The notes beneath the pieces were generated by a model, which saw only the letters and a program-made list of their open reading frames with translations, did not search any database and had not been told where the DNA came from. Shown here in pieces: positions 10,212 through 37,432 of a stretch of 47,574 nt of DNA. Source of the stretch: Escherichia phage RobRod40; sequence record OR896835.1; one strand, 5' to 3'. Position 1 is the stretch's first letter. Every line of letters starts with the position of its first letter. Both the position numbers and the translations under genes were made by a program.

Positions 10212-10602
10212 ATTATCTATAGCAGCCAGAAAATATGTTAATGATTTGCTGGTGAGCAACTTCCCTGTCAGATATCCAGTATCCTGGGAAAATGTTTCTT
10301 TCACTCCTCCAGCAGATGGCTCTATCTGGCTAAAGTATGACTATATCGAGGTTGATACCGTAACCTACGGACTTAGCAGGAAGTGCAAATACTATGTAGG
10401 AATGGTGCAGGTTTCTGTTTTCTTTAGCCCTGGTACTGGCATTGACAAGCCGAGACAAATCGCTAATCAATTGGCAGAATCTATCGTTGATGGTACAATG
10501 CTTGACAGCGGGACCATTTATGAGTCTGGAGTTGTTAACCCGGTTATCAAATCCAAATCTGGGTGGTTTATCCCGGTTCATTTTTATGTTCGTCTAGACT
10601 AG
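10201..10602 (+). CDS. putative tail terminator-like protein
   Basis: GTG start preceded by GGAGG; overlaps upstream stop; position before major tail gene. Confidence 0.4.
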   Translation: MHYELSIAARKYVNDLLVSNFPVRYPVSWENVSFTPPADGSIWLKYDYIEVDTVTYGLSRKCKYYVGMVQVSVFFSPGTGIDKPRQIANQLAESIVDGTMLDSGTIYESGVVNPVIKSKSGWFIPVHFYVRLD

Positions 10603-10610
10603 GAACTAGC

Positions 10611-11096
10611 ATGAAAGATTTCTTAAATTCTCTTTACGATTATCGCGATGGAAAGATTTACAAGAAGGGCGGTGATAAACCATGTGGTTACGGTAAGACA
10701 AATGGCTACGTTCAAACATACGTTTCAAAGACTGGTAAGCGATATGTTCATAGATTGATCTGGGAAATGCATAATGGTGAAATTGCATATGGAATGCAGA
10801 TAGATCACATTAATGGTGTTAGGGATGATAATCGAATTGAGAATTTAAGATGCGTGACCGTAACTGATAACAGAAGAAATGCTGGAACCAGGTATCGCTC
10901 ACGTAGATTTCCTGGAGTTAATGGAGTAAACTACAACAAGCGCGATGATCTTTGGCATGCAATTATTTCTGACAAAGGAAGAGCAAGGAGTCTTGGTCAT
11001 TATAAGAGTTTTGTCTCAGCTTGCGAAGCAAGGATTGTCGCTGAAGTATTATTGGGATATCACGCTGGTCACGCAATGCGGGATAGCGTTTATTAA
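10611..11096 (+). CDS. HNH homing endonuclease (paralog 2)
   Basis: ATG at 10611 after AGGA; HRLIWEMHNG and IDHINGVRDDNRIENLR motifs; inserted between tail-completion and major tail genes. Confidence 0.85.
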   Translation: MKDFLNSLYDYRDGKIYKKGGDKPCGYGKTNGYVQTYVSKTGKRYVHRLIWEMHNGEIAYGMQIDHINGVRDDNRIENLRCVTVTDNRRNAGTRYRSRRFPGVNGVNYNKRDDLWHAIISDKGRARSLGHYKSFVSACEARIVAEVLLGYHAGHAMRDSVY

Positions 11097-11105
11097 TCTA
11101 ACTTA

Positions 11106-11780
11106 TTGAATTGGAGGTGTATTATTGCCCATCTCAGCAATGGCACGCAGGTCTTCGTAGAAGGCTCTCGCGGAGCTGCAATTGACGTAACTGCAATTTC
11201 TAACTCAGTTACCCCTGTTTTAACTGTATCTGACGCATCTGGATTGGTTGTTGGTGATTACCTTCTTTTCACCTCTTCTGCCTCCACGCTTCTGGCTGAT
11301 AAGCAAGTTCGCGTAACTGCAATCACTGGTACGTCAGTAACTGTTGAAGGTATTGATACCTCTAGCACTACAAAGTTCCCAGCCGGTTTAACTGGTGAGG
11401 TTGTTAAAATCACCTCTTGGTTCGAAGTTCCGTGTGTTCAGGACGTATCTACTGATGGCGGCGAACAGCAGTTCGTTAACTTCCAGTGTTTGTCCGATGA
11501 CCGTGAACAGCAGATTCCGACTTATAAATCTGCCGTAACGAATACCTTCACCTTTGCTCACGAGTACACCAACCCGGTCTATCCGGTCCTGCGTAACTAC
11601 GATGAGTCAGGTCAGGTTGTCGCGATTCGCCTGTTCGTACCTCGAGCTAGCGAAATGCGTTTGCAGTCCGGCACTATCGCTTTCAATGACACCCCCACCA
11701 TTGGTGTTAACGAAATCGAAACGGTATCCATCGCAGTATCCATTCGTGGCCGCCTGTCCTCTGTGGCAGCTGAAGTTTAA
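11106..11780 (+). CDS. major tail (tube) protein
   Basis: ~220 aa; strong terminator immediately downstream; position before chaperone and tape measure; start uncertain (no in-frame ATG/GTG near GGAGG at 11113-11117). Confidence 0.6.
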   Translation: MNWRCIIAHLSNGTQVFVEGSRGAAIDVTAISNSVTPVLTVSDASGLVVGDYLLFTSSASTLLADKQVRVTAITGTSVTVEGIDTSSTTKFPAGLTGEVVKITSWFEVPCVQDVSTDGGEQQFVNFQCLSDDREQQIPTYKSAVTNTFTFAHEYTNPVYPVLRNYDESGQVVAIRLFVPRASEMRLQSGTIAFNDTPTIGVNEIETVSIAVSIRGRLSSVAAEV

Positions 11781-11787
11781 AACATAA

Positions 11788-11809
11788 ACCCTCTTCGGAG
11801 GGTTTTTTA
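11788..11809 (+). terminator. rho-independent terminator after major tail gene
   Basis: ACCCTC-ttcg-GAGGGT hairpin then TTTTTT. Confidence 0.8.
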
Positions 11810-11813
11810 TTGC

Positions 11814-11857
11814 ATAGCACTTTTTGCTAAAGCACTTATTCAACTTTGATGTATAGT
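11814..11857 (+). promoter_or_regulatory. conserved promoter-like module (ATAGCAC-ttt-TTGCTAAA, 22 bp, TATAGT)
   Basis: Directly after major-tail terminator; followed by TACTTCATCGAAACGA leader; precedes lipoprotein gene. Confidence 0.6.
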
Positions 11858-11890
11858 TACTTCATCGAAACGAAATGAGAGATTAAAGAA

Positions 11891-12277
11891 ATGAAAGCAA
11901 TCATCGCAATTATGGCAACACTGCTACTTGCTGGCTGTAACAGCGATAAGGTTAAGACACTTAATGTTGATCTGGCTTCAAATGAATGCAAGAACATCGT
12001 ATACAACGCGACGGTTAACAATGAGGCATTTACTAGGCTTTCATTCAAATACCCAGAACTTAAAGATTCCGTTATGTACGTGGCCCACATTGAGTGCACT
12101 AAATCTGTTAACAATTTTACCCGTGGTGTTGTAATTGAACACACCACAACATTGGCAAAGGTATCAAAGCCTAGTGACGCTTCAATCGCGATGGTTTATA
12201 CTAAGATCTATAGTTTAGAGGCTCTCGCTAGTATGGTTGGCGAGAAACTAGCTTACTCACGCGTTGTTATGAAATAA
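11891..12277 (+). CDS. predicted lipoprotein inserted in tail module
   Basis: N-terminal signal peptide with lipobox LLAGC; own promoter-like module upstream. Confidence 0.65.
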   Translation: MKAIIAIMATLLLAGCNSDKVKTLNVDLASNECKNIVYNATVNNEAFTRLSFKYPELKDSVMYVAHIECTKSVNNFTRGVVIEHTTTLAKVSKPSDASIAMVYTKIYSLEALASMVGEKLAYSRVVMK

Positions 12278-12295
12278 AATAGAGGATAAAACGAG

Positions 12296-12610
12296 ATGGC
12301 AAAGTTCAAACTTTCACTGGCGGCACTGCCAGACTTCAAGCTCCCAGTAAAATTTAAGCTGGCTAACGACCAGGATGTAGAGGTTGTTTTTACAGTTAAG
12401 CACAAGAAGACCTCTGAGCTTCAGGAGCTACTACAGAAAGAAGACCTGAGCACTAAAGAATTGATTATGGCAATCGCCTCTGATTGGGATCTGGAAGAAG
12501 AATTTAATGAAGAAAACGTCATTGAGTTTGCTGATTTATTCCCGTCATCCACAGTTGCGCTAACAACTGCTTACATGCAAGCATTGGCTGGGCAGCGAGT
12601 AAAAAACTAA
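12296..12610 (+). CDS. tail assembly chaperone (gpG-like)
   Basis: 104-aa acidic protein immediately upstream of tape measure; ends with slippery A_AAA_AAC before stop. Confidence 0.7.
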   Translation: MAKFKLSLAALPDFKLPVKFKLANDQDVEVVFTVKHKKTSELQELLQKEDLSTKELIMAIASDWDLEEEFNEENVIEFADLFPSSTVALTTAYMQALAGQRVKN

Positions 12611-12930
12611 AACGAGCGGTGTATCTACAGTACCAGTCAGAGCCAACAGATGCCGAACTGGAAGCTATTGGGATGCGCCGCTCTGATTACGAAGACGAAG
12701 AACCTGAGGTTTTACACTTCGACGAAAACATGATGAAAGCGTGGGACATTTATTGTTCAATGGCTACACAATGGAGGGTTGGAGCTAACGGAGCTACGGG
12801 TCTCGATTACAACGTGCTAAATTTCCTCTTTAGAGTGTATAATGTCTCAGAAGAAGAATTGGTGCTCAGCGATTTACGCATCCTTGAAGCTAAGGCTCTA
12901 GAGATGATGGATAACCTGAGAAAAAAATAA
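12296..12930 (+). CDS. tail assembly chaperone frameshift fusion (gpGT-like), predicted -1 shift at 12601-12607
   Basis: Downstream ORF (track 12619..12930) is in the -1 frame relative to G-like ORF and remains open upstream through the slippery site; conserved lambda-like G/GT arrangement. Confidence 0.6.
12601..12607 (+). other. predicted -1 programmed ribosomal frameshift slippery heptamer A_AAA_AAC
   Basis: XXXYYYZ heptamer just before G-like stop; -1 frame continues into T-like ORF. Confidence 0.6.
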
Positions 12931-12953
12931 CCCGCTTCGGCGGGTTTTCTATT
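12931..12953 (+). terminator. terminator/attenuator between chaperone and tape measure
   Basis: CCCGC-ttcg-GCGGG hairpin then TTTTCTATT. Confidence 0.6.
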
Positions 12954-12965
12954 ATGGAGGCTTAG

Positions 12966-15737
12966 ATGGCAACAAATGAATTAGCCGGAATCACACTAGC
13001 CGTAGACGTATCGCAGGTAGATAGGGGAACGCAATCCCTACAGAAGTTTAGGCAGGCTAACCAACAGGCCGCTTCCGGTATTAGTGAATTCGTCAACGCT
13101 GAGCAGGTCGCTAAAAACCAGGCTAGAGACACCGCGCGAGCACTTGCTGAGCAACAGGCTTCACTAGCTAAGCTGCAAACAGCTATTGATCCAACTGCGG
13201 CAAAGTTCCGCAAGCTGCAAGAGGCTGCGGTAGGTCTCGATAAGGCATTCGCGGCTGGAGTGGTGCCTGATGAGGAATTTTTCCGATTAGGTGAGGCTCT
13301 TGAAACTCAAAACGCAAAACTTGCTCGTTCACGTGCTGCGCTAACTGAAGAGGGGAGGGCTGCGGCTCAGGCTGCAAAGGATAAGGCAAAGGCAAAGGCT
13401 GAAGCGGATAGATTTATTGCGTCACTGCAACGACAGGCTCAAGCGGCAACATTGACGCGTGAAGAGTACTTGAAGTTGCAGGCGGCCCAGCTTGGCGTAT
13501 CCGCACAGGCGACCCCATTAATCAACCAGATTGGAGCAGCAACCCAAAGGACTGTTGAAAATCTTGGCAAGCAAGCCGCAGCATTCCAGAGGTCAGGTTT
13601 AAGTGCGGGACAATACAAGAATGCGATTTCTCAGTTACCAGCACAGATTACTGATATTGGTACATCATTAGCTGGCGGCATTCCTATTTGGCTTATTGCA
13701 ATCCAGCAGGGTGGGCAGATTAAGGATTCATTTGGCGGCATTGCTAATACTGCGAGATTCCTTCTTTCTTATCTCAACCCTCTCACAGTAGCCGCTGGCG
13801 TTCTTGGTGCTGGCTTTGCTTACGCCGCGGTAAGTATTTACAAGAGCGAGGCAGCCATTAAGGCAGCAAGAAAGGCGGTTGAGGAAACTCTGGGTGTCAC
13901 AGATGAGGCGGCTCGACAGTTAAGCATTAGCATCGCCAAGATTTCAGAGGCATCAGGGAAGACCGCTGAAGATATCGCGAAGTCATTCGTATCAACACGT
14001 GACGGAGCGCAAGAAGCAATTCTGAAGCTGATTGATGTTGGTGTAAGTTATGATGATGCAAGGGAGCTAGTTGAGCGATATAAGGATGCCTCCAACTTTA
14101 CCCAAGTTAACGCGCAAATCGAGCAACACAGACTTGAAGCTGCAAAGATTCAGGATAGCTGGTTCGAGAACGCAAAGGCCGTTAGCTACTATAACGATGT
14201 TGCAGTCCAGGGCCTAGTTAACTCACCACTAACAAACGTGGCGGCAAGAAACAGCGCGGCAATTCAGGAGTTCGCAAGCCTTCTGGAAAAGGACGTTAAC
14301 CAAGCTCTTATAGATGGAAATAGACATGTAGCCGAGCAAGTTGATTTAATCGGTAAAGAATACTTGGCACTTGACCGCGTGGCTGGTGCGGAGAAATCCC
14401 TGGCAGACGCTAGAAAGCAAGCAGCGGCAATCGCCAGAAGCGGTAACGCTGAAGCTATCGCCCAGGCCAATAGAGTCATTCAGTTGCGTCAGCGAGAGGT
14501 TGATGAAGCCAAGAAGGCCGAAGCGGAGAGAAATAAGCCAGCAAAAACGAAAGCACCAAAGGAAGCCAGAGACCTTACCATCAATTATGAGTCAGGAGTC
14601 CTTGCTCTTGAGGCGCAGTTAAGGCTTCTTCAGGACGTAGGGAGTCAGACAAAGGCAATCAGCACTGAGCGGAGAAAGCTTCTTGAGGAAGAAGCTAAGT
14701 TTGCAATCCTTGAGGAGCGTCAAGCAGCTGGTACAATAGGAAGAGAACAGGCCAGGCTTCTTCTTGAAAAGGATAAAGTTCTTGAACTAGCAAGACAGAA
14801 GGCTGAACTAGGTGATCAGATTGTTTTGCAGGAGCGCGCTAATAAGCTGGCTGAGGATAACCGCAAAAAGATTCTTCAGATAAACAACGAAGCAAATAAC
14901 ATCGATTTGGGCGCTGGGTTATCATCTCGGGATCAACAAAGGTCAAGAGAGATTCAGGCTCTTCAGTCCAATCAGGAAAACGCTGGTGGTTCTCTTGATG
15001 ACTTAGATTTCCAGCAATTACTGGAAGCAAGAAGGCAGTACTACAAGGATGAGGATAATCTCAGAGCAAACTGGAAAGCAGGTGTGACCTCCACTCTCTC
15101 TGACTTGAGTGATGAGTATACCAACTTCAACAAAATCGCCGGGGATTTAACCGCTGCGGCATTCAATGGAATTACCGATCAGATTACAAACCTTGTAACC
15201 ACTGGTGAGACCAACTTCCGGGAGTTCACCGCAAACATCCTCAAAATGATTGCTAAGATTGCAACTCAATTACTTTTGGTTAAGGCTATTGAATCTACAA
15301 TCAAGAGCTTTGGTGGTAACACTGGCGCGGGTAGTGCCTTCGAGTCAATAAGGTCAGCAATTGGTTTCGCTGGTGGTGGTTACACTGGTGATGGTGGAAA
15401 GTACCAGCCAGCGGGTACGGTACACCGAGGTGAATTCGTATTCACAAAAGAAGCAACAAGCCGAATTGGTGTTAAGAACCTTTACGCACTGATGAAAGGT
15501 TACGCAAATGGCGGTGCTGTAGGTGGCCCATCTGGTTATGCTAATGGCGGTTTGGTTTCTGGTGGGTCAGATGTTAATGTTAGTGGTATCACCGTTAACG
15601 TTAATGGTGGCGTTGGTAGCGACCCAGAACAGGCCAAAGCATTGCAGAGTGGCGTTAAGGCAATCGTAGCTGAAGAGATTGCTCAGTCTTTCCAGCAGGG
15701 AGGCAAAGCGTATGCCTATTTGAGAGGTTTTAACTAA
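12966..15737 (+). CDS. tail tape measure protein
   Basis: 923 aa, Ala/Gln/Glu-rich coiled-coil-like with Gly-rich C-terminal region; RBS GGAGG; follows G/GT chaperone. Confidence 0.85.
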   Translation: MATNELAGITLAVDVSQVDRGTQSLQKFRQANQQAASGISEFVNAEQVAKNQARDTARALAEQQASLAKLQTAIDPTAAKFRKLQEAAVGLDKAFAAGVVPDEEFFRLGEALETQNAKLARSRAALTEEGRAAAQAAKDKAKAKAEADRFIASLQRQAQAATLTREEYLKLQAAQLGVSAQATPLINQIGAATQRTVENLGKQAAAFQRSGLSAGQYKNAISQLPAQITDIGTSLAGGIPIWLIAIQQGGQIKDSFGGIANTARFLLSYLNPLTVAAGVLGAGFAYAAVSIYKSEAAIKAARKAVEETLGVTDEAARQLSISIAKISEASGKTAEDIAKSFVSTRDGAQEAILKLIDVGVSYDDARELVERYKDASNFTQVNAQIEQHRLEAAKIQDSWFENAKAVSYYNDVAVQGLVNSPLTNVAARNSAAIQEFASLLEKDVNQALIDGNRHVAEQVDLIGKEYLALDRVAGAEKSLADARKQAAAIARSGNAEAIAQANRVIQLRQREVDEAKKAEAERNKPAKTKAPKEARDLTINYESGVLALEAQLRLLQDVGSQTKAISTERRKLLEEEAKFAILEERQAAGTIGREQARLLLEKDKVLELARQKAELGDQIVLQERANKLAEDNRKKILQINNEANNIDLGAGLSSRDQQRSREIQALQSNQENAGGSLDDLDFQQLLEARRQYYKDEDNLRANWKAGVTSTLSDLSDEYTNFNKIAGDLTAAAFNGITDQITNLVTTGETNFREFTANILKMIAKIATQLLLVKAIESTIKSFGGNTGAGSAFESIRSAIGFAGGGYTGDGGKYQPAGTVHRGEFVFTKEATSRIGVKNLYALMKGYANGGAVGGPSGYANGGLVSGGSDVNVSGITVNVNGGVGSDPEQAKALQSGVKAIVAEEIAQSFQQGGKAYAYLRGFN

Positions 15738-21780: not shown

Positions 21781-21827
21781 GTGATAGAATTGGCAAATGG
21801 ATTTGCCTATTTCAATTGGAGATAATT

Positions 21828-22136
21828 ATGGCTGAGTATGGAATTGCAACATATGATGCAAATGGTAATTACAATAACTATGGGATTAAACCTGTGACGG
21901 TTGTTGGCTGGAATTTTCTAGCGGCCGGACAGAACTCGGCCTCATTCAGTTATCAGGTTCCAGCAGGAATGCACGTTAACTATGTTGTAAGCCTTGATGA
22001 CGGGTCTGTAGGTGGTCCAGGAAGGGCCATAATAGCTAGCGGAAACACCATAACAGTAACGCCAACAAACTCTCCAGGGCCAAATGTGTACCCTTCATCT
22101 AACTGCTATATAATCGCATACCTGGAGAATAACTAA
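21828..22136 (+). CDS. hypothetical tail-associated protein
   Basis: ATG 21828 after GGAG; immediately downstream of J-like gene. Confidence 0.5.
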   Translation: MAEYGIATYDANGNYNNYGIKPVTVVGWNFLAAGQNSASFSYQVPAGMHVNYVVSLDDGSVGGPGRAIIASGNTITVTPTNSPGPNVYPSSNCYIIAYLENN

Positions 22137-22825
22137 TGTCATATGGTGCTTTTATAGATGTGAATGGGAATCCATTCATAACTCCACTATCAACTCCATT
22201 TGCATTGTATGCGAAGGGGACCATTCAATCTGTGAACGTCAGTAGTTCACAAGTTGCTGAAAGGTACGTCAATATCCCTACTGGCGTTCCAGTTATAGCT
22301 TTTTGCAAAACAACAAACACAGCACAGGGTACGGCTCTTTCGGCCTTCACATTTAGAGAGGGAGCTAACGTTGGAACTGTTTACATTAGGGGTACAAACC
22401 CAGCAAACCAATCATACACATTAACTTATTATATATTTGCTATCTTTGAGCAGAGTTTACCGGATTGGGGGATGGCGATTTGGGATGATTCCGGCAAGTT
22501 GATATTAACCAATGAAACAAAGGTTTTAAGTGACCTAGTGACCGTTGGAACCCCTGGTTATGCAGGTGGCGGTTTAAATATTGACTCAACGCTTAGCGGT
22601 AGTTACGCGGTTGTTCCTACGATACTTGGAAACTACCAGATACAAATCGGAACGCTGCCAACTGGGCAACCAATAATTGGCAACTCAACAGCGGGAACAT
22701 CATGCAGGTATAACGGATCTACAACAAGAATAAACGCAGCCGCGACAACTCAGGCGGGTCAGGTATTCAATACAACAAATAATGGTAATGTGATCACAGC
22801 AATTAACACAGCAGCATACGACTAA
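22136..22825 (+). CDS. hypothetical tail-associated protein
   Basis: 229-aa ORF, start overlaps upstream stop; terminator downstream. Confidence 0.5.
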   Translation: MSYGAFIDVNGNPFITPLSTPFALYAKGTIQSVNVSSSQVAERYVNIPTGVPVIAFCKTTNTAQGTALSAFTFREGANVGTVYIRGTNPANQSYTLTYYIFAIFEQSLPDWGMAIWDDSGKLILTNETKVLSDLVTVGTPGYAGGGLNIDSTLSGSYAVVPTILGNYQIQIGTLPTGQPIIGNSTAGTSCRYNGSTTRINAAATTQAGQVFNTTNNGNVITAINTAAYD

Positions 22826-22847
22826 GCCCCTTTCGGGGCTTTTATTT
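22825..22847 (+). terminator. rho-independent terminator (between convergent genes)
   Basis: AGCCCC-tttc-GGGGCT then TTTTATTTT. Confidence 0.7.
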
Positions 22848-23068
22848 TACATTGAGCAGTCGTGAGACTTGAAGTTCTTATCTGATACATAGTGGAATGA
22901 GAAGGGGTATCCAGCACGCAATAGCATCTCATTACCGCGCATCTGAGAGCCAAAAACATAAACCGAGTACTCTGCTCCGCCTGATTCATAAATCGCCGTA
23001 CATGTGCGCTCTGGCATCGTAGAGCAACCAATCAGGAGCAATGCCGCAATTGCTATAATCTTTTTCAT
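22847..23068 (-). CDS. small lipoprotein (candidate superinfection-exclusion protein)
   Basis: MKKIIAIAALLLIGC signal peptide with lipobox; GGAGG RBS 8 nt upstream of ATG at 23068; ~73 aa, adjacent to tail fibre genes. Confidence 0.5.
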   Translation of the reverse strand: MKKIIAIAALLLIGCSTMPERTCTAIYESGGAEYSVYVFGSQMRGNEMLLRAGYPFSFHYVSDKNFKSHDCSM

Positions 23069-23069
23069 A

Positions 23070-23174
23070 TTAGAATCCTCCAAAGTTACTAGCCAGCAGA
23101 AGAACCCAAACGAAGAAGCCAGTTACGGCAGTGCCAGCGACCAGGGCAATTGAGTTGTTGATTAAGTTAGTCAT
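23070..23174 (-). CDS. small predicted membrane peptide
   Basis: 34-aa ORF with hydrophobic segment ALVAGTAVTGFFVWVLLLA; AAGGAA RBS; alternative longer start at 23300 lacks RBS. Confidence 0.3.
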   Translation of the reverse strand: MTNLINNSIALVAGTAVTGFFVWVLLLASNFGGF

Positions 23175-23310: not shown

Positions 23311-23340
23311 TGATATACGCCAAGTTACGCAAATTTACGC
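23311..23340. repeat. iteron-like direct repeats (3 x TACGC at 10-bp period)
   Basis: gatataCGC / aagtTACGC / atttTACGC spaced one helical turn apart in AT-rich intergenic region. Confidence 0.5.
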
Positions 23341-23344
23341 ATTG

Positions 23345-23405
23345 GTTACATTAAAATATCTATATATATCAACCTTTTACTATTATTATTATTATTATAT
23401 ATATT
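23345..23405. repeat. AT-rich module GTTACATTAAAA...(TAT)6(AT)n, copy 1
   Basis: Homologous to 41661-41728; contains (TAT)6 microsatellite at 23381-23398. Confidence 0.6.
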
Positions 23406-23520
23406 ACTGTGTATATCATGTAACTACTTCTATAGAGTGTTCCGGTTATAATTTTAATATCATGTGGATTTATACAGTATCCAACAACCAGCATACCAAT
23501 GCACCCTCAGCAATAAATGA

Positions 23521-36581: not shown

Positions 36582-37067
36582 ATGAAGCAGAAGCTAGTGG
36601 TTGGTGCTGCGACCGCTGCGGCAATATACATCGCAGCGCCGCTTATTGAGCTTGTTGAAGGCGTAGAGAATAAGCCATACATGGATATTGCTGGAATCCC
36701 TACAGTTTGCGCCGGCGTTACTGGCCCTGACGTGGTTTGGGGCAAGAATTACAGCAATAGAGAGTGCCGAAAACTTCTAGAGAAGCACATTCAGATTCAT
36801 GGCAAGTATGTTGAGGATGCAGTTACCTACCCAATAGAACCAGAGACAAGGGCGGCGTTAATCAGCTTTAGCTACAATGTTGGCGGCTCAGCGATGAGGA
36901 AATCTACTGCTGTTAAGTTAATTAACCAGGGTAAGATTGAGCAAGGCTGTAAGGCTTTGGGTCTCTGGAATAAAGCTACCATTAACGGCAAGAAGGTTGT
37001 GGTTAAGGGGTTGGTGAATCGCAGGAATGAGGAGATTAAGTTATGCTTAAGTGGATTGCAGCGTTAG
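36582..37067 (+). CDS. SAR-endolysin (GH24 lysozyme with N-terminal signal-anchor-release domain)
   Basis: Weakly hydrophobic Gly/Ala-rich N-terminal helix VVGAATAAAIYIAAPLI followed by catalytic E-x8-D-x5-T triad (EGVENKPYMDIAGIPT). Confidence 0.8.
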   Translation: MKQKLVVGAATAAAIYIAAPLIELVEGVENKPYMDIAGIPTVCAGVTGPDVVWGKNYSNRECRKLLEKHIQIHGKYVEDAVTYPIEPETRAALISFSYNVGGSAMRKSTAVKLINQGKIEQGCKALGLWNKATINGKKVVVKGLVNRRNEEIKLCLSGLQR

Positions 37068-37432
37068 TAATGTGCGTAGCTTTATCTGGATGCTCAGCAA
37101 CATCTGCTCTGACCGGATTAATTGGCAGTAAGCCAGAGATTAGCGCTCAAGCTGGTGCAGAAAACAATAAGGTTGGTGTTGGGTTAACGAACAAGGTTGA
37201 CTCAAGTAACTCAAGTGAAACCGCGGTTAAAGATTCTAATGTTGGGTCACTGGATAGCTCGAGCGGGAAAAAGACTGCTGAAAACTCGATTAAGGCCTCA
37301 ACAATCACTGCCGAAAAGATTGAGATTACCAACAACGACTCATCCGCACTTCCGTGGATTGGAACAGGAGCTATGGGGTTACTTGTTTTTATCCTCCTGA
37401 CTGCAATATTAAGACGTAAAAAAGCCTCCTGA
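37043..37432 (+). CDS. unimolecular spanin (lipoprotein with C-terminal TMD)
   Basis: Lipobox ALSGC at N-terminus and C-terminal TMD GAMGLLVFILLTAIL followed by RRKK; overlaps endolysin end. Confidence 0.7.
   Translation: MLKWIAALVMCVALSGCSATSALTGLIGSKPEISAQAGAENNKVGVGLTNKVDSSNSSETAVKDSNVGSLDSSSGKKTAENSIKASTITAEKIEITNNDSSALPWIGTGAMGLLVFILLTAILRRKKAS

What the first reader, a model, noticed from the sequence alone, without database searches (positions are those of the whole stretch)
11891..12277. Two lipoprotein genes embedded in or next to the tail module: candidate receptor-blocking exclusion factors
ORF 11891-12277 (lipobox LLAGC) sits between the major tail and chaperone genes with its own promoter module. 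A second small lipoprotein, 22847-23068 (minus, lipobox LLIGC, about 73 aa), lies directly after the tail-tip/fibre genes in the opposite orientation. Small phage lipoproteins next to receptor-binding genes are known to block the phage's own outer-membrane receptor (Cor of phi80/N15, Llp of T5). Either could be a superinfection-exclusion or lysis-inhibition protein.
Basis: inference. Interest (0 to 1): 0.55.

Follow-up and report, generated by a model that had tools for sequence, protein, structure and literature searches.

The report
Cor plus an uncharacterised Rtp34-like lipoprotein
Of the two small lipoprotein genes in this T1/Rtp-like coliphage, one is the well-known Cor protein that shuts the FhuA receptor, and the other belongs to a tiny phage-only family of exported proteins in a fast-changing slot of the tail operon, function untested.

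Summary
The window is a complete Rtp-like (Drexlerviridae, Braunvirinae) coliphage genome. Both ORFs exist as described and both carry textbook lipoprotein signals.

ORF B (22847-23068, minus) is ordinary. It is Cor, above NCBIfam's curated cut-off and 81% identical to T1 Cor. It sits behind a T1-type receptor-binding cassette, so it almost certainly blocks FhuA. This is already known.

ORF A (11891-12277) is the homologue of rtp34, an annotated but unstudied gene.
- It belongs to a very small family: 31 clusters among 5.8 billion proteins, all on Drexlerviridae phage contigs.
- It has two invariant cysteines and a confident alpha/beta model with no structural relative.
- Only its signal peptide resembles Cor, Llp or Rtp45.
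- It occupies a replaceable slot between the major tail protein and the tail chaperone. That slot is empty in T1 and holds an unrelated 82-aa exported protein in most Rtp-like phages. One natural chimera swaps the export signals.
- Its presence does not follow the receptor-binding allele, and the phage has a separate spanin.

ORF A is therefore not the phage's own-receptor blocker and not a spanin. The best guess is an envelope-acting accessory or exclusion factor with an unknown target. An "own promoter" was not confirmed.

The parts
11786..11805 (+). Intrinsic terminator after the major tail protein gene (8-bp stem, T-run). It is a backbone element, not part of the inserted gene.
   Evidence: Invariant in five phages whatever the downstream cargo. 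A terminator is annotated at the same place in T1, MM01 and CEB_EC3a.
11806..11890 (+). Conserved 85-nt leader with a -10-like TATAGT (11852-11857) and a weak GAGAG Shine-Dalgarno. No canonical sigma-70 promoter.
   Evidence: A search for a repeated promoter module in the window found nothing.
11891..12277 (+). ORF A: Rtp34-family lipoprotein precursor, 128 aa. Signal peptide is aa 1-15 (11891-11935). The lipidated Cys16 is at 11936-11938. The mature domain is 112 aa, with invariant Cys33 and Cys69.
12296..12930 (+). Tail assembly chaperone pair (G-like 12296-12610, T-like/DUF1799 12619-12930). It lies immediately downstream, with no terminator in between, so it is probably co-transcribed with ORF A.
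21816..22825 (+). T1-type receptor-binding cassette after the J-like protein. The two genes are 87% and 91% identical to T1 gp32 and gp31. This allele is linked to FhuA.
   Evidence: literature.
22847..23068 (-). ORF B: Cor superinfection-exclusion lipoprotein, 73 aa, lipobox LIGC with Cys15 (23026-23024).
23070..23174 (-). Small hydrophobic ORF (34 aa, MTNLINNSIALVAGTAVTGFFVWVLLLASNFGGF) directly upstream of cor and co-oriented with it. Its stop lies 1 nt before the cor ATG. Conserved in JulesPiccard.
37043..37432 (+). Third and last lipobox ORF of the genome: a T1 gp11-like unimolecular spanin in the holin-endolysin-spanin cassette. It shows that the spanin role is already filled.

Best explanation
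The finding joins two unrelated genes.

(1) ORF B is Cor. [quoted passage not shown] There it binds the phage's terminal receptor, predicted to be FhuA, so that further T1-, phi80- or T5-type phages, and released progeny, cannot adsorb productively. Family membership is shown here. The mechanism is taken from work on Cor and Llp.

(2) ORF A is a member of the small, phage-only Rtp34 family. It is an exported protein, normally lipid-anchored. A linker of only about 5 residues joins the anchor to a compact alpha/beta domain that is probably disulfide-bonded (Cys33-Cys69).
- It is encoded in a replaceable accessory slot just behind the attenuating terminator of the major tail protein gene, and is probably transcribed with the tail chaperone and tape-measure genes.
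- What is shown: export signal, selection, slot behaviour, absence of any link to the receptor-binding allele, absence of homology to known exclusion lipoproteins, and absence of a spanin architecture.
- What is inferred: it acts autonomously in the cell envelope on a host component other than the phage's own terminal receptor. The most likely role is an additional exclusion or progeny-protection factor aimed at competing phages.

Confidence by step:
- ORF B is Cor: about 0.9.
- ORF A is an exported Rtp34-family accessory protein: about 0.9.
- ORF A acts as an envelope-directed exclusion factor of any kind, this reading and rival 2 together: about 0.45.
- This particular version, binding a host envelope protein other than the phage's own receptor: about 0.3.
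For: ORF B:
- NCBIfam Cor equivalog above its cut-off and PHROG 1119 E 5e-28.
- 81% identical to T1 Cor and 92% to JulesPiccard 'superinfection exclusion lipoprotein Cor'.
- The adjacent cassette is 87-91% identical to T1 gp32/gp31.
- The Cor cassette is reported as a consistent feature of FhuA-targeting phages (PMC13164509). The receptor-binding locus allele predicts the receptor (PMC8594841).

ORF A:
- Lipobox present, and only 3 such ORFs in the genome against 0.1 expected.
- 84-95% identical to rtp34, Bas01 and MM01 homologues.
- The family has 31 clusters of 5.8 billion proteins, or 5 representatives of 1.84 billion, all on phage-sized Drexlerviridae contigs.
- Cys33 and Cys69 are invariant.
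- dN/dS is 0.18, with dN three times that of the flanking genes.
- All five AF2 models have pLDDT 84.5-86.6.
- Slot behaviour. The flanks are conserved right up to the start codon and to the chaperone's ribosome-binding site, whatever the cargo. T1 has no gene there. 82 phage records carry an unrelated 82-aa protein with an N-terminal signal in the slot. In TR1 the major tail protein is 97% identical but the slot protein only 29%. GC is 40.3% against 44.6% for the genome.
- A natural chimera (L020/P0032) joins the 82-aa-type signal to a TR1-type mature domain.
- A third clade sits elsewhere in Warwickvirus-like genomes, which shows the gene is autonomous.
Against: There is no experimental or homology-based functional evidence for ORF A.
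- No fold relative was found among solved or viral structures.
- Nothing matched in PADLOC.
- Two family members (P0014, P0032) lack the lipobox Cys, and one (P0017) has Asp at +2, an inner-membrane retention signal. A fixed tether to the outer membrane is therefore not essential, which weakens the 'binds an outer-membrane protein from below' version.
- If ORF A is transcribed only with late tail genes, it comes late for classical superinfection exclusion.
- The family is so rare, and so readily replaced by an unrelated gene, that its benefit must be conditional.
- For ORF B, FhuA binding is inferred from homology, not tested.
Confidence: 0.45

Rival explanations
1. ORF A blocks the phage's own terminal receptor, as Cor, Llp and Rtp45 do.
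For: It is a small lipoprotein of a virulent siphophage with a short tether. There is a weak PHROG 1119 (Cor) hit at E 0.011.
Against: That hit, and the hhalign matches to Cor and Rtp45, cover only the signal peptide. The mature domain is 112 aa and helical, against about 55-60 aa for the known blockers. The gene is 10 kb from the receptor-binding locus. Its presence is uncoupled from the receptor allele: Bas01 has it, while Bas02 and OzMSK lack it, and all carry the Rtp44/DUF6453-type receptor-binding locus (LptD is demonstrated for Bas01 and Bas02). This window has it together with a FhuA/T1-type cassette, and L014 has it with an allele only 42% identical to Rtp44. Every one of these phages already carries a cognate exclusion lipoprotein beside its receptor-binding genes.
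Confidence: 0.07
2. ORF A acts after adsorption. As a periplasmic factor it would jam the incoming tail tip, the tape-measure conduit or a tail-borne wall hydrolase of superinfecting siphophages. This would be functionally like HK97 gp15, T4 Spackle or TP-J34 Ltp, and independent of the receptor used.
For: It sits in the tail operon next to the chaperone and tape-measure genes, as the HK97 gp15 moron does (own knowledge). It is independent of the receptor-binding allele. The family tolerates an outer-membrane anchor, a probable inner-membrane anchor, or no lipid anchor. That fits a target which spans the periplasm. The small helical disulfide-bonded periplasmic domain is reminiscent of Spackle (own knowledge).
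Against: No sequence or fold similarity to any of these proteins was seen in the PDB searches. The flanks recombine right at the gene borders, so there is no sign of co-adaptation with the neighbouring tape-measure genes. The idea rests on analogy only.
Confidence: 0.17
3. ORF A is a lysis-related protein: a spanin component, an antiholin or lysis-inhibition factor, or a regulator of outer-membrane disruption.
For: Outer-membrane lipoproteins of phages are most often o-spanins. There is a weak PHROG 1275 'Rz-like spanin' hit at E 0.012. The Warwick-type relatives lie next to the lysis cassette in some genomes. The gene is probably co-transcribed with late genes.
Against: The genome has a complete holin-endolysin-u-spanin cassette; the spanin at 37043-37432 matches phrog_1804 at E 9.7e-50. 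ORF A has no C-terminal transmembrane segment and no partner i-spanin. The spanin hit covers residues 2-37, the signal peptide. Most relatives lack the gene altogether and still lyse their hosts.
Confidence: 0.07
4. ORF A has some other envelope role unrelated to phage-phage competition. Examples are countering a host periplasmic or outer-membrane defence, or modulating envelope stress or vesiculation during infection.
For: The slot shows fast allele turnover and replacement by unrelated exported proteins. That is the signature expected of any host-interaction gene. No homology constrains the function.
Against: No positive evidence. Nothing matched in PADLOC. No known anti-defence protein of coliphages is a lipoprotein of this type (own knowledge).
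Confidence: 0.2
5. ORF A is a virion or tail-assembly component, or a non-functional or spurious ORF.
For: It lies inside the tail morphogenesis operon.
Against: A Sec/SPase II signal sends the protein out of the cytoplasm, where tails are assembled. T1 and most Rtp-like phages build tails without it. It is not spurious: dN/dS is 0.18, two cysteines are invariant across 31 clusters, and the fold prediction is confident.
Confidence: 0.03

Closest known systems
Cor exclusion lipoprotein of T1, phi80, N15, HK022 and mEp167 (NCBIfam NF047972, PHROG 1119)
   Same: ORF B is a member. It scores above the curated cut-off, is 81% identical to T1 Cor, and has the same size, lipobox, position and inverted orientation behind the gp32/gp31-type cassette. 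ORF A shares only the lipoprotein signal.
   Different: ORF B shows nothing notable, apart from sitting on an Rtp-like backbone rather than a Tunavirus one. ORF A has an unrelated mature domain twice as long, a different locus, and no coupling to the receptor allele.
Rtp45 of phage Rtp: exclusion lipoprotein bound to LptDE(M), cryo-EM 9RPS (PMC12685063)
   Same: It comes from the same phage group, and Rtp itself encodes both Rtp45 and Rtp34. It is a periplasmic, outer-membrane-tethered small lipoprotein with a disulfide.
   Different: Rtp45 occupies the position that cor occupies in this window. It is about 6 kDa and beta-hairpin rich. hhalign against the Rtp34 family aligns only the signal region, with probability 8%. 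ORF B is only 27% identical to it over 48 residues.
Llp of T5 (FhuA-Llp complex, PDB 8A60)
   Same: It is the functional model for ORF B. ORF B's weak best PDB hit is Llp (E 0.62).
   Different: That similarity is not significant. Llp is encoded next to pb5 in an early region. There is no relation to ORF A.
HK97 gp15 moron (inner-membrane protein that blocks DNA entry), encoded inside the tail operon next to the tape-measure gene (own knowledge)
   Same: It is an accessory gene inserted among the tail chaperone and tape-measure genes of a lambda-like tail module. It encodes an envelope protein and is absent from close relatives.
   Different: gp15 is a transmembrane protein of a temperate phage expressed from the prophage. 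ORF A is a lipoprotein of a virulent phage.
T4 Spackle (gp61.3) and TP-J34 Ltp (own knowledge)
   Same: These are small exported, mostly helical proteins. Spackle has a disulfide and Ltp is a lipoprotein. Both stop superinfecting phage after adsorption.
Spanins (Rz1-type o-spanin; T1 gp11 u-spanin)
   Same: Phage outer-membrane lipoproteins with the same kind of signal.
   Different: ORF A lacks a C-terminal transmembrane domain and an i-spanin partner. The real u-spanin is at 37043-37432.

Membership tests
Cor exclusion lipoprotein (ORF B) | Match to the curated family model above its cut-off | tested here: met
   NF047972 scores 47.8 bits against a cut-off of 31, E 1.1e-12, covering residues 1-72. 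PHROG 1119 E 5e-28.
Cor exclusion lipoprotein (ORF B) | SPase II signal with lipobox Cys | tested here: met
   MKKIIAIAALLLIGC, Cys15.
Cor exclusion lipoprotein (ORF B) | Encoded next to the cognate receptor-binding cassette, in inverted orientation | tested here: met
   Same layout as T1 ST32-ST31-ST30(cor). The neighbours are 87% and 91% identical to the T1 genes.
Cor exclusion lipoprotein (ORF B) | Inactivates FhuA and excludes FhuA-dependent phages | not testable with these tools
   Inferred from 81% identity to T1 Cor and from the literature.
Receptor-blocking lipoproteins Cor/Llp/Rtp45 (ORF A) | Sequence or profile similarity of the mature domain | tested here: not met
   The PHROG 1119 hit (E 0.011) covers residues 1-54 only. 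No NCBIfam Cor hit. hhalign against Cor aligns 15 signal-peptide columns, and against Rtp45 gives probability 8%.
Receptor-blocking lipoproteins Cor/Llp/Rtp45 (ORF A) | Adjacent to the receptor-binding gene and co-varying with it | tested here: not met
   ORF A is 9.5 kb upstream of the cassette. Carriers have LptD-type, FhuA-type and a third Rtp44-like allele. Non-carriers with the LptD type also exist.
Receptor-blocking lipoproteins Cor/Llp/Rtp45 (ORF A) | Very small mature protein (about 55-60 aa) | tested here: not met
   The mature domain is 112 aa with five helices and a small sheet.
Bacterial-type lipoprotein precursor (ORF A) | Positive n-region, uncharged hydrophobic core, [LVI][ASTVI][GAS]C lipobox with Cys at position 15-35 | tested here: met
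   K2, AIIAIMATLLL, L-A-G-C16. 29 of 31 family clusters keep the Cys. Actual lipidation and the sorting to the outer membrane predicted from Asn at +2 cannot be tested here.
Rtp34 family (ORF A) | Full-length homology to rtp34 of phage Rtp | tested here: met
   86% identity over 128 aa to P0004 (rtp34), E 4e-64. Same slot and flanks.
Spanin (ORF A) | o-spanin paired with or embedded in an i-spanin gene, or u-spanin with a C-terminal transmembrane domain, within the lysis cassette | tested here: not met
   No C-terminal hydrophobic segment and no partner gene. The gene lies in the tail operon. The genome's u-spanin is 37043-37432, phrog_1804 E 9.7e-50.
Moron (ORF A) | Accessory gene absent from relatives, with deviant composition | tested here: met
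   Absent in T1 and replaced by an unrelated gene in 82 records. GC is 40.3% against 44.6% for the genome and 48.9% for the upstream gene.
Moron (ORF A) | Own promoter and own terminator | tested here: inconclusive
   No sigma-70 consensus match in the gap; only TATAGT. There is no terminator after the gene, and the upstream terminator belongs to the backbone.

The most novel reading that the evidence does not exclude
The slot between the major tail protein and the tail chaperone in Rtp-like phages may be an unrecognised, rapidly exchanging 'periplasmic exclusion cassette'. Its alternative cargos would be the Rtp34-type, TR1-type and 82-aa-type exported proteins, which shuffle even their export signals. 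They would form a new class of exclusion factors that act independently of the outer-membrane receptor, for example by jamming the tail tip or tape-measure conduit of competing siphophages, or by binding a so far unexploited envelope machine.
Probability: 0.15. Interest if true: 0.6.

Novelty: new variant of a known kind. Interest (0 to 1): 0.33.

Why it matters
Phage exclusion lipoproteins have proved to be precise probes of essential outer-membrane machines, as shown by Llp-FhuA and Rtp45-LptDE. ORF B adds nothing new. ORF A belongs to a phage-only family that is well folded, under selection, and unrelated to any studied exclusion protein. It sits in a slot that nearly every Rtp-like phage fills with some exported protein. 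If it excludes other phages, it would reveal a new envelope target or a receptor-independent exclusion step. It would also matter for designing phage cocktails and for understanding why Rtp/T1-like contaminants out-compete other phages. Convenient matched strains already exist: BASEL Bas01 carries the gene and Bas02 and Bas03 carry the 82-aa alternative.

Tried and rejected
- Repeated 'promoter module': searching the window for the leader sequence found only the one copy, and the 12-mer occurred at chance level.
- Link between Rtp34 and LptD targeting, suggested because Rtp and Bas01 both have the gene. Rejected: Bas02 and OzMSK lack it, and this window pairs it with a T1/FhuA cassette.
- Homology between the 82-aa slot protein and the Rtp34 family, which I suspected by eye around the two cysteines. 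hhalign gave probability 0.2%.
- Pfam, NCBIfam, PADLOC and a PDB sequence profile gave nothing beyond signal-peptide noise.
- Bacterial homologues: no match in complete E. coli genomes. The one hit in GTDB species genomes is a Paenibacillus thermonuclease-like lipoprotein that shares the chance word FKYPELKD. Rejected.
- Literature: rtp34 is not discussed in any held paper. The original Rtp genome paper is not held. The MSK 'virion proteome' is based only on gel-band sizes and is uninformative.
- The first AF2 run on the shallow alignment gave only 1 of 5 confident models. It was superseded by the run on the deeper alignment.

Full report
WHAT THE WINDOW IS. The 47.6-kb window is a complete genome of an Rtp-like virulent coliphage (Drexlerviridae, Braunvirinae). 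The stretch 10500-13500 is 88-92% identical at the DNA level to AugustePiccard (BASEL Bas01), Rtp, MM01 and about 85 other records. Gene order is the usual terminase - portal - capsid - tail - replication - lysis.

THE OBSERVATION. Both ORFs exist as described.
- ORF A (11891-12277, +, 128 aa) begins MKAIIAIMATLLLAGC. ORF B (22847-23068, -, 73 aa) begins MKKIIAIAALLLIGC and has a GGAGGA Shine-Dalgarno 7 nt upstream.
- ORF A lies between the major tail protein (PF08813, E 4.5e-68) and the G-like tail assembly chaperone (PF08748, E 2.4e-34).
- A rule-based lipobox scan of all ORFs of at least 40 aa found exactly three candidates in the genome: A, B and the spanin at 37043-37432. Shuffled sequence gave 0.1 +/- 0.3. 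The signals are therefore not chance.
- The part of the observation that does not hold is the 'own promoter module'. The gap 11806-11890 contains no sigma-70 match of at least 9/12. It has only a -10-like TATAGT without a correctly spaced -35.
- The whole gap, including the terminator 11786-11805, is backbone sequence. It is almost invariant in phages that carry a different gene in this position, and T1 has the terminator with no gene at all.
- No terminator separates ORF A from the chaperone gene. ORF A is therefore most simply read as part of the late tail transcript, downstream of an attenuating terminator.

ORF B IS COR.
- It scores 47.8 bits on NCBIfam NF047972 'phage exclusion lipoprotein Cor' (cut-off 31) and E 5e-28 on PHROG 1119.
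- It is 81% identical to T1 Cor and 92% identical to the annotated Cor of JulesPiccard.
- The two genes between the J-like protein and cor are 87% and 91% identical to T1 gp32 and gp31.
- In small siphophages the allele of this locus predicts the terminal receptor (PMC8594841). The gp32-gp31-cor cassette is described as a constant feature of FhuA-targeting phages (PMC13164509).
- This phage has an Rtp backbone but a T1/FhuA-type host-recognition module. It lacks the Rtp44/Rtp45 (LptD) module of Rtp itself.
- ORF B is thus an ordinary, already known exclusion lipoprotein.

ORF A IS THE rtp34 HOMOLOGUE, FROM A TINY PHAGE-ONLY FAMILY.
- It is 84-90% identical to 'hypothetical protein' rtp34 of Rtp and to its counterparts in AugustePiccard and MM01. 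Those are the only close hits in 50,697 phage records.
- Against 5.8 billion proteins a single-sequence search found 14 clusters and a profile search found 31. A full HMM scan of 1.84 billion 50%-identity representatives found 5.
- Every member lies on a phage-sized contig with Drexlerviridae neighbours. Nothing was found in complete E. coli genomes. The single hit in GTDB species genomes is a chance word match in a Paenibacillus nuclease lipoprotein.
- Three clades exist:
  - Rtp34-type, 128 aa.
  - TR1-type, 126 aa, about 29% identical.
  - A longer Warwickvirus-type, which lies in a different part of the genome, after the helicase and VRR-NUC genes and near the lysis cassette.
- Invariant positions are K22, C33, N35, E68, C69, V102 and A121. 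The two cysteines fall in helices 1 and 3 of the model, which suggests a periplasmic disulfide.
- With the 31-sequence alignment all five AlphaFold2 models are confident (pLDDT 84.5-86.6, pTM 0.76). Secondary structure is strand 22-25, helices 26-42, 45-53 and 57-74, strand 81-83, helices 96-105 and 108-123. Only about five residues separate the lipidated Cys16 from the fold.
- Pfam, NCBIfam, PADLOC and a PDB sequence profile give nothing beyond the signal peptide.
- It is a real gene. Among seven Rtp34-type alleles dN/dS is 0.18, although dN is three times that of the flanking structural genes.

THE SLOT. The most informative result is the behaviour of the locus.
- T1 has nothing between its major tail protein and chaperone genes.
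- In 82 Rtp-like records the slot holds an 82-aa protein with an N-terminal signal and two cysteines. Profile comparison shows it is not homologous to the Rtp34 family.
- Four records hold the Rtp34 type and one, TR1, holds the TR1 type.
- The exchange borders are sharp. Sequence is conserved up to ATGAA at the start codon, and again from the chaperone's ribosome-binding site onward.
- Between this window and TR1 the major tail protein is 97% identical, the chaperones 70-73%, and the slot protein 29%. Against JeanPiccard the flanks are 94-99% identical and the slot genes are unrelated.
- The slot gene has lower GC: 40.3% against 44.6% for the genome and 48.9% for the upstream gene.
- One metagenomic phage (L020) carries a chimera. 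The signal sequence of the 82-aa type is fused to a TR1-type mature domain. Another (P0014) has a non-lipoprotein signal. One Warwick-type member has Asp at +2.
- The slot therefore always encodes an exported protein, but the kind of membrane tether is negotiable.

WHAT ORF A IS NOT.
- It is not a Cor/Llp/Rtp45 relative. Similarity is confined to the signal peptide. The mature domain is twice as large and helical.
- It is not coupled to the receptor. AugustePiccard carries it and JeanPiccard lacks it, yet both use LptD. OzMSK lacks it and carries the Rtp44-type locus. This window combines it with a FhuA-type cassette. L014 combines it with an allele only 42% identical to Rtp44.
- All these phages already have a cognate exclusion lipoprotein next to their receptor-binding genes.
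- It is not a spanin. The genome has a holin-endolysin-u-spanin cassette, with phrog_1804 at E 9.7e-50, and ORF A has no C-terminal membrane segment.
- It is unlikely to be a virion part, because it is exported and most relatives lack it.

MOST LIKELY MECHANISM.
- Shown: ORF A is an exported, normally lipid-anchored, compact and fast-evolving accessory protein. It moves as an autonomous cassette.
- Inferred: it works in the envelope on a host or incoming-phage component other than the phage's own terminal receptor.
- In a strictly virulent phage the known uses of such proteins are exclusion of competitors, protection of progeny, and lysis. With lysis covered, I favour an exclusion or protection role of some kind, with combined probability about 0.45.
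  - One version binds a host envelope protein from the periplasmic side, with probability about 0.3. The short tether and Asn at +2, which predicts Lol sorting to the outer membrane, support this version.
  - The other version acts after adsorption on the incoming tail, as HK97 gp15, Spackle and Ltp do (about 0.17). The dispensable lipid anchor and the independence from the receptor support this version.
- A different envelope role, for instance against a host defence, cannot be excluded (about 0.2).
- None of this has been tested. No paper in the library mentions rtp34, and the recent Rtp45-LptDE study does not address it.

VERDICT. The finding is half textbook and half an uncharacterised lead. 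ORF B is Cor. ORF A is a real lipoprotein of an orphan family, in a hypervariable slot for exported proteins. Interest is modest. The gene is already annotated in Rtp, a lipoprotein moron in a tail operon would not surprise a specialist, and no mechanism is established. The slot and its signal-swapping alleles are nonetheless a concrete, cheaply testable entry point, using the matched BASEL phages.

Noticed in passing
window 23070-23174 (-): A 34-aa hydrophobic ORF (MTNLINNSIALVAGTAVTGFFVWVLLLASNFGGF) ends 1 nt before the cor start codon and is co-oriented with it. Almost the same peptide is encoded upstream of cor in JulesPiccard (bas03_0032). It may be a small membrane partner or leader peptide of cor.
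   Followed up: partly
window 10563-11096 (+): An HNH endonuclease (PF13392, E 5.8e-21) is inserted between the tail terminator and the major tail protein genes. It is present in metagenomic relatives L014 and L015 but absent from Rtp, AugustePiccard and JeanPiccard. The major tail protein ORF here can start at a TTG (11106), giving 224 aa instead of 218.
   Followed up: partly
L020 6001-6426 (P0032); L007 1848-2243 (P0014): These are natural variants of the slot protein without a lipobox cysteine. P0032 is a chimera of the 82-aa-type signal sequence and a TR1-type mature domain, which shows recombination between unrelated slot alleles inside the coding sequence.
   Followed up: yes
L005 3941-4375 (BEK12A); L018 6001-6441: Distant Rtp34-family lipoproteins (about 28-33% identical) in Tempevirinae/Warwickvirus-like phages lie in a different module, after the helicase and VRR-NUC genes and next to the Dam or lysis genes. 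One representative (P0017) has Asp at +2, an inner-membrane retention signal.
   Followed up: partly
window 12929-12946: A bidirectional hairpin terminator lies between the T-like chaperone gene and the tape-measure gene, as annotated in T1 and MM01. The tail operon is thus punctuated by attenuators after the major tail protein and after the chaperones.
   Followed up: no
window 23340-23480: A very AT-rich stretch with (TAA)n-like simple repeats and several overlapping promoter-like hexamers on the minus strand lies upstream of the cor transcription unit. It marks the divergent junction between the tail and recombination modules.
   Followed up: no
window 21816-23068 versus the Rtp backbone: The genome is a mosaic. 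The tail backbone is about 90% identical to Rtp and AugustePiccard, but the host-recognition and exclusion cassette is T1-type (87-91% protein identity to T1). This predicts FhuA rather than LptD as the terminal receptor.
   Followed up: yes
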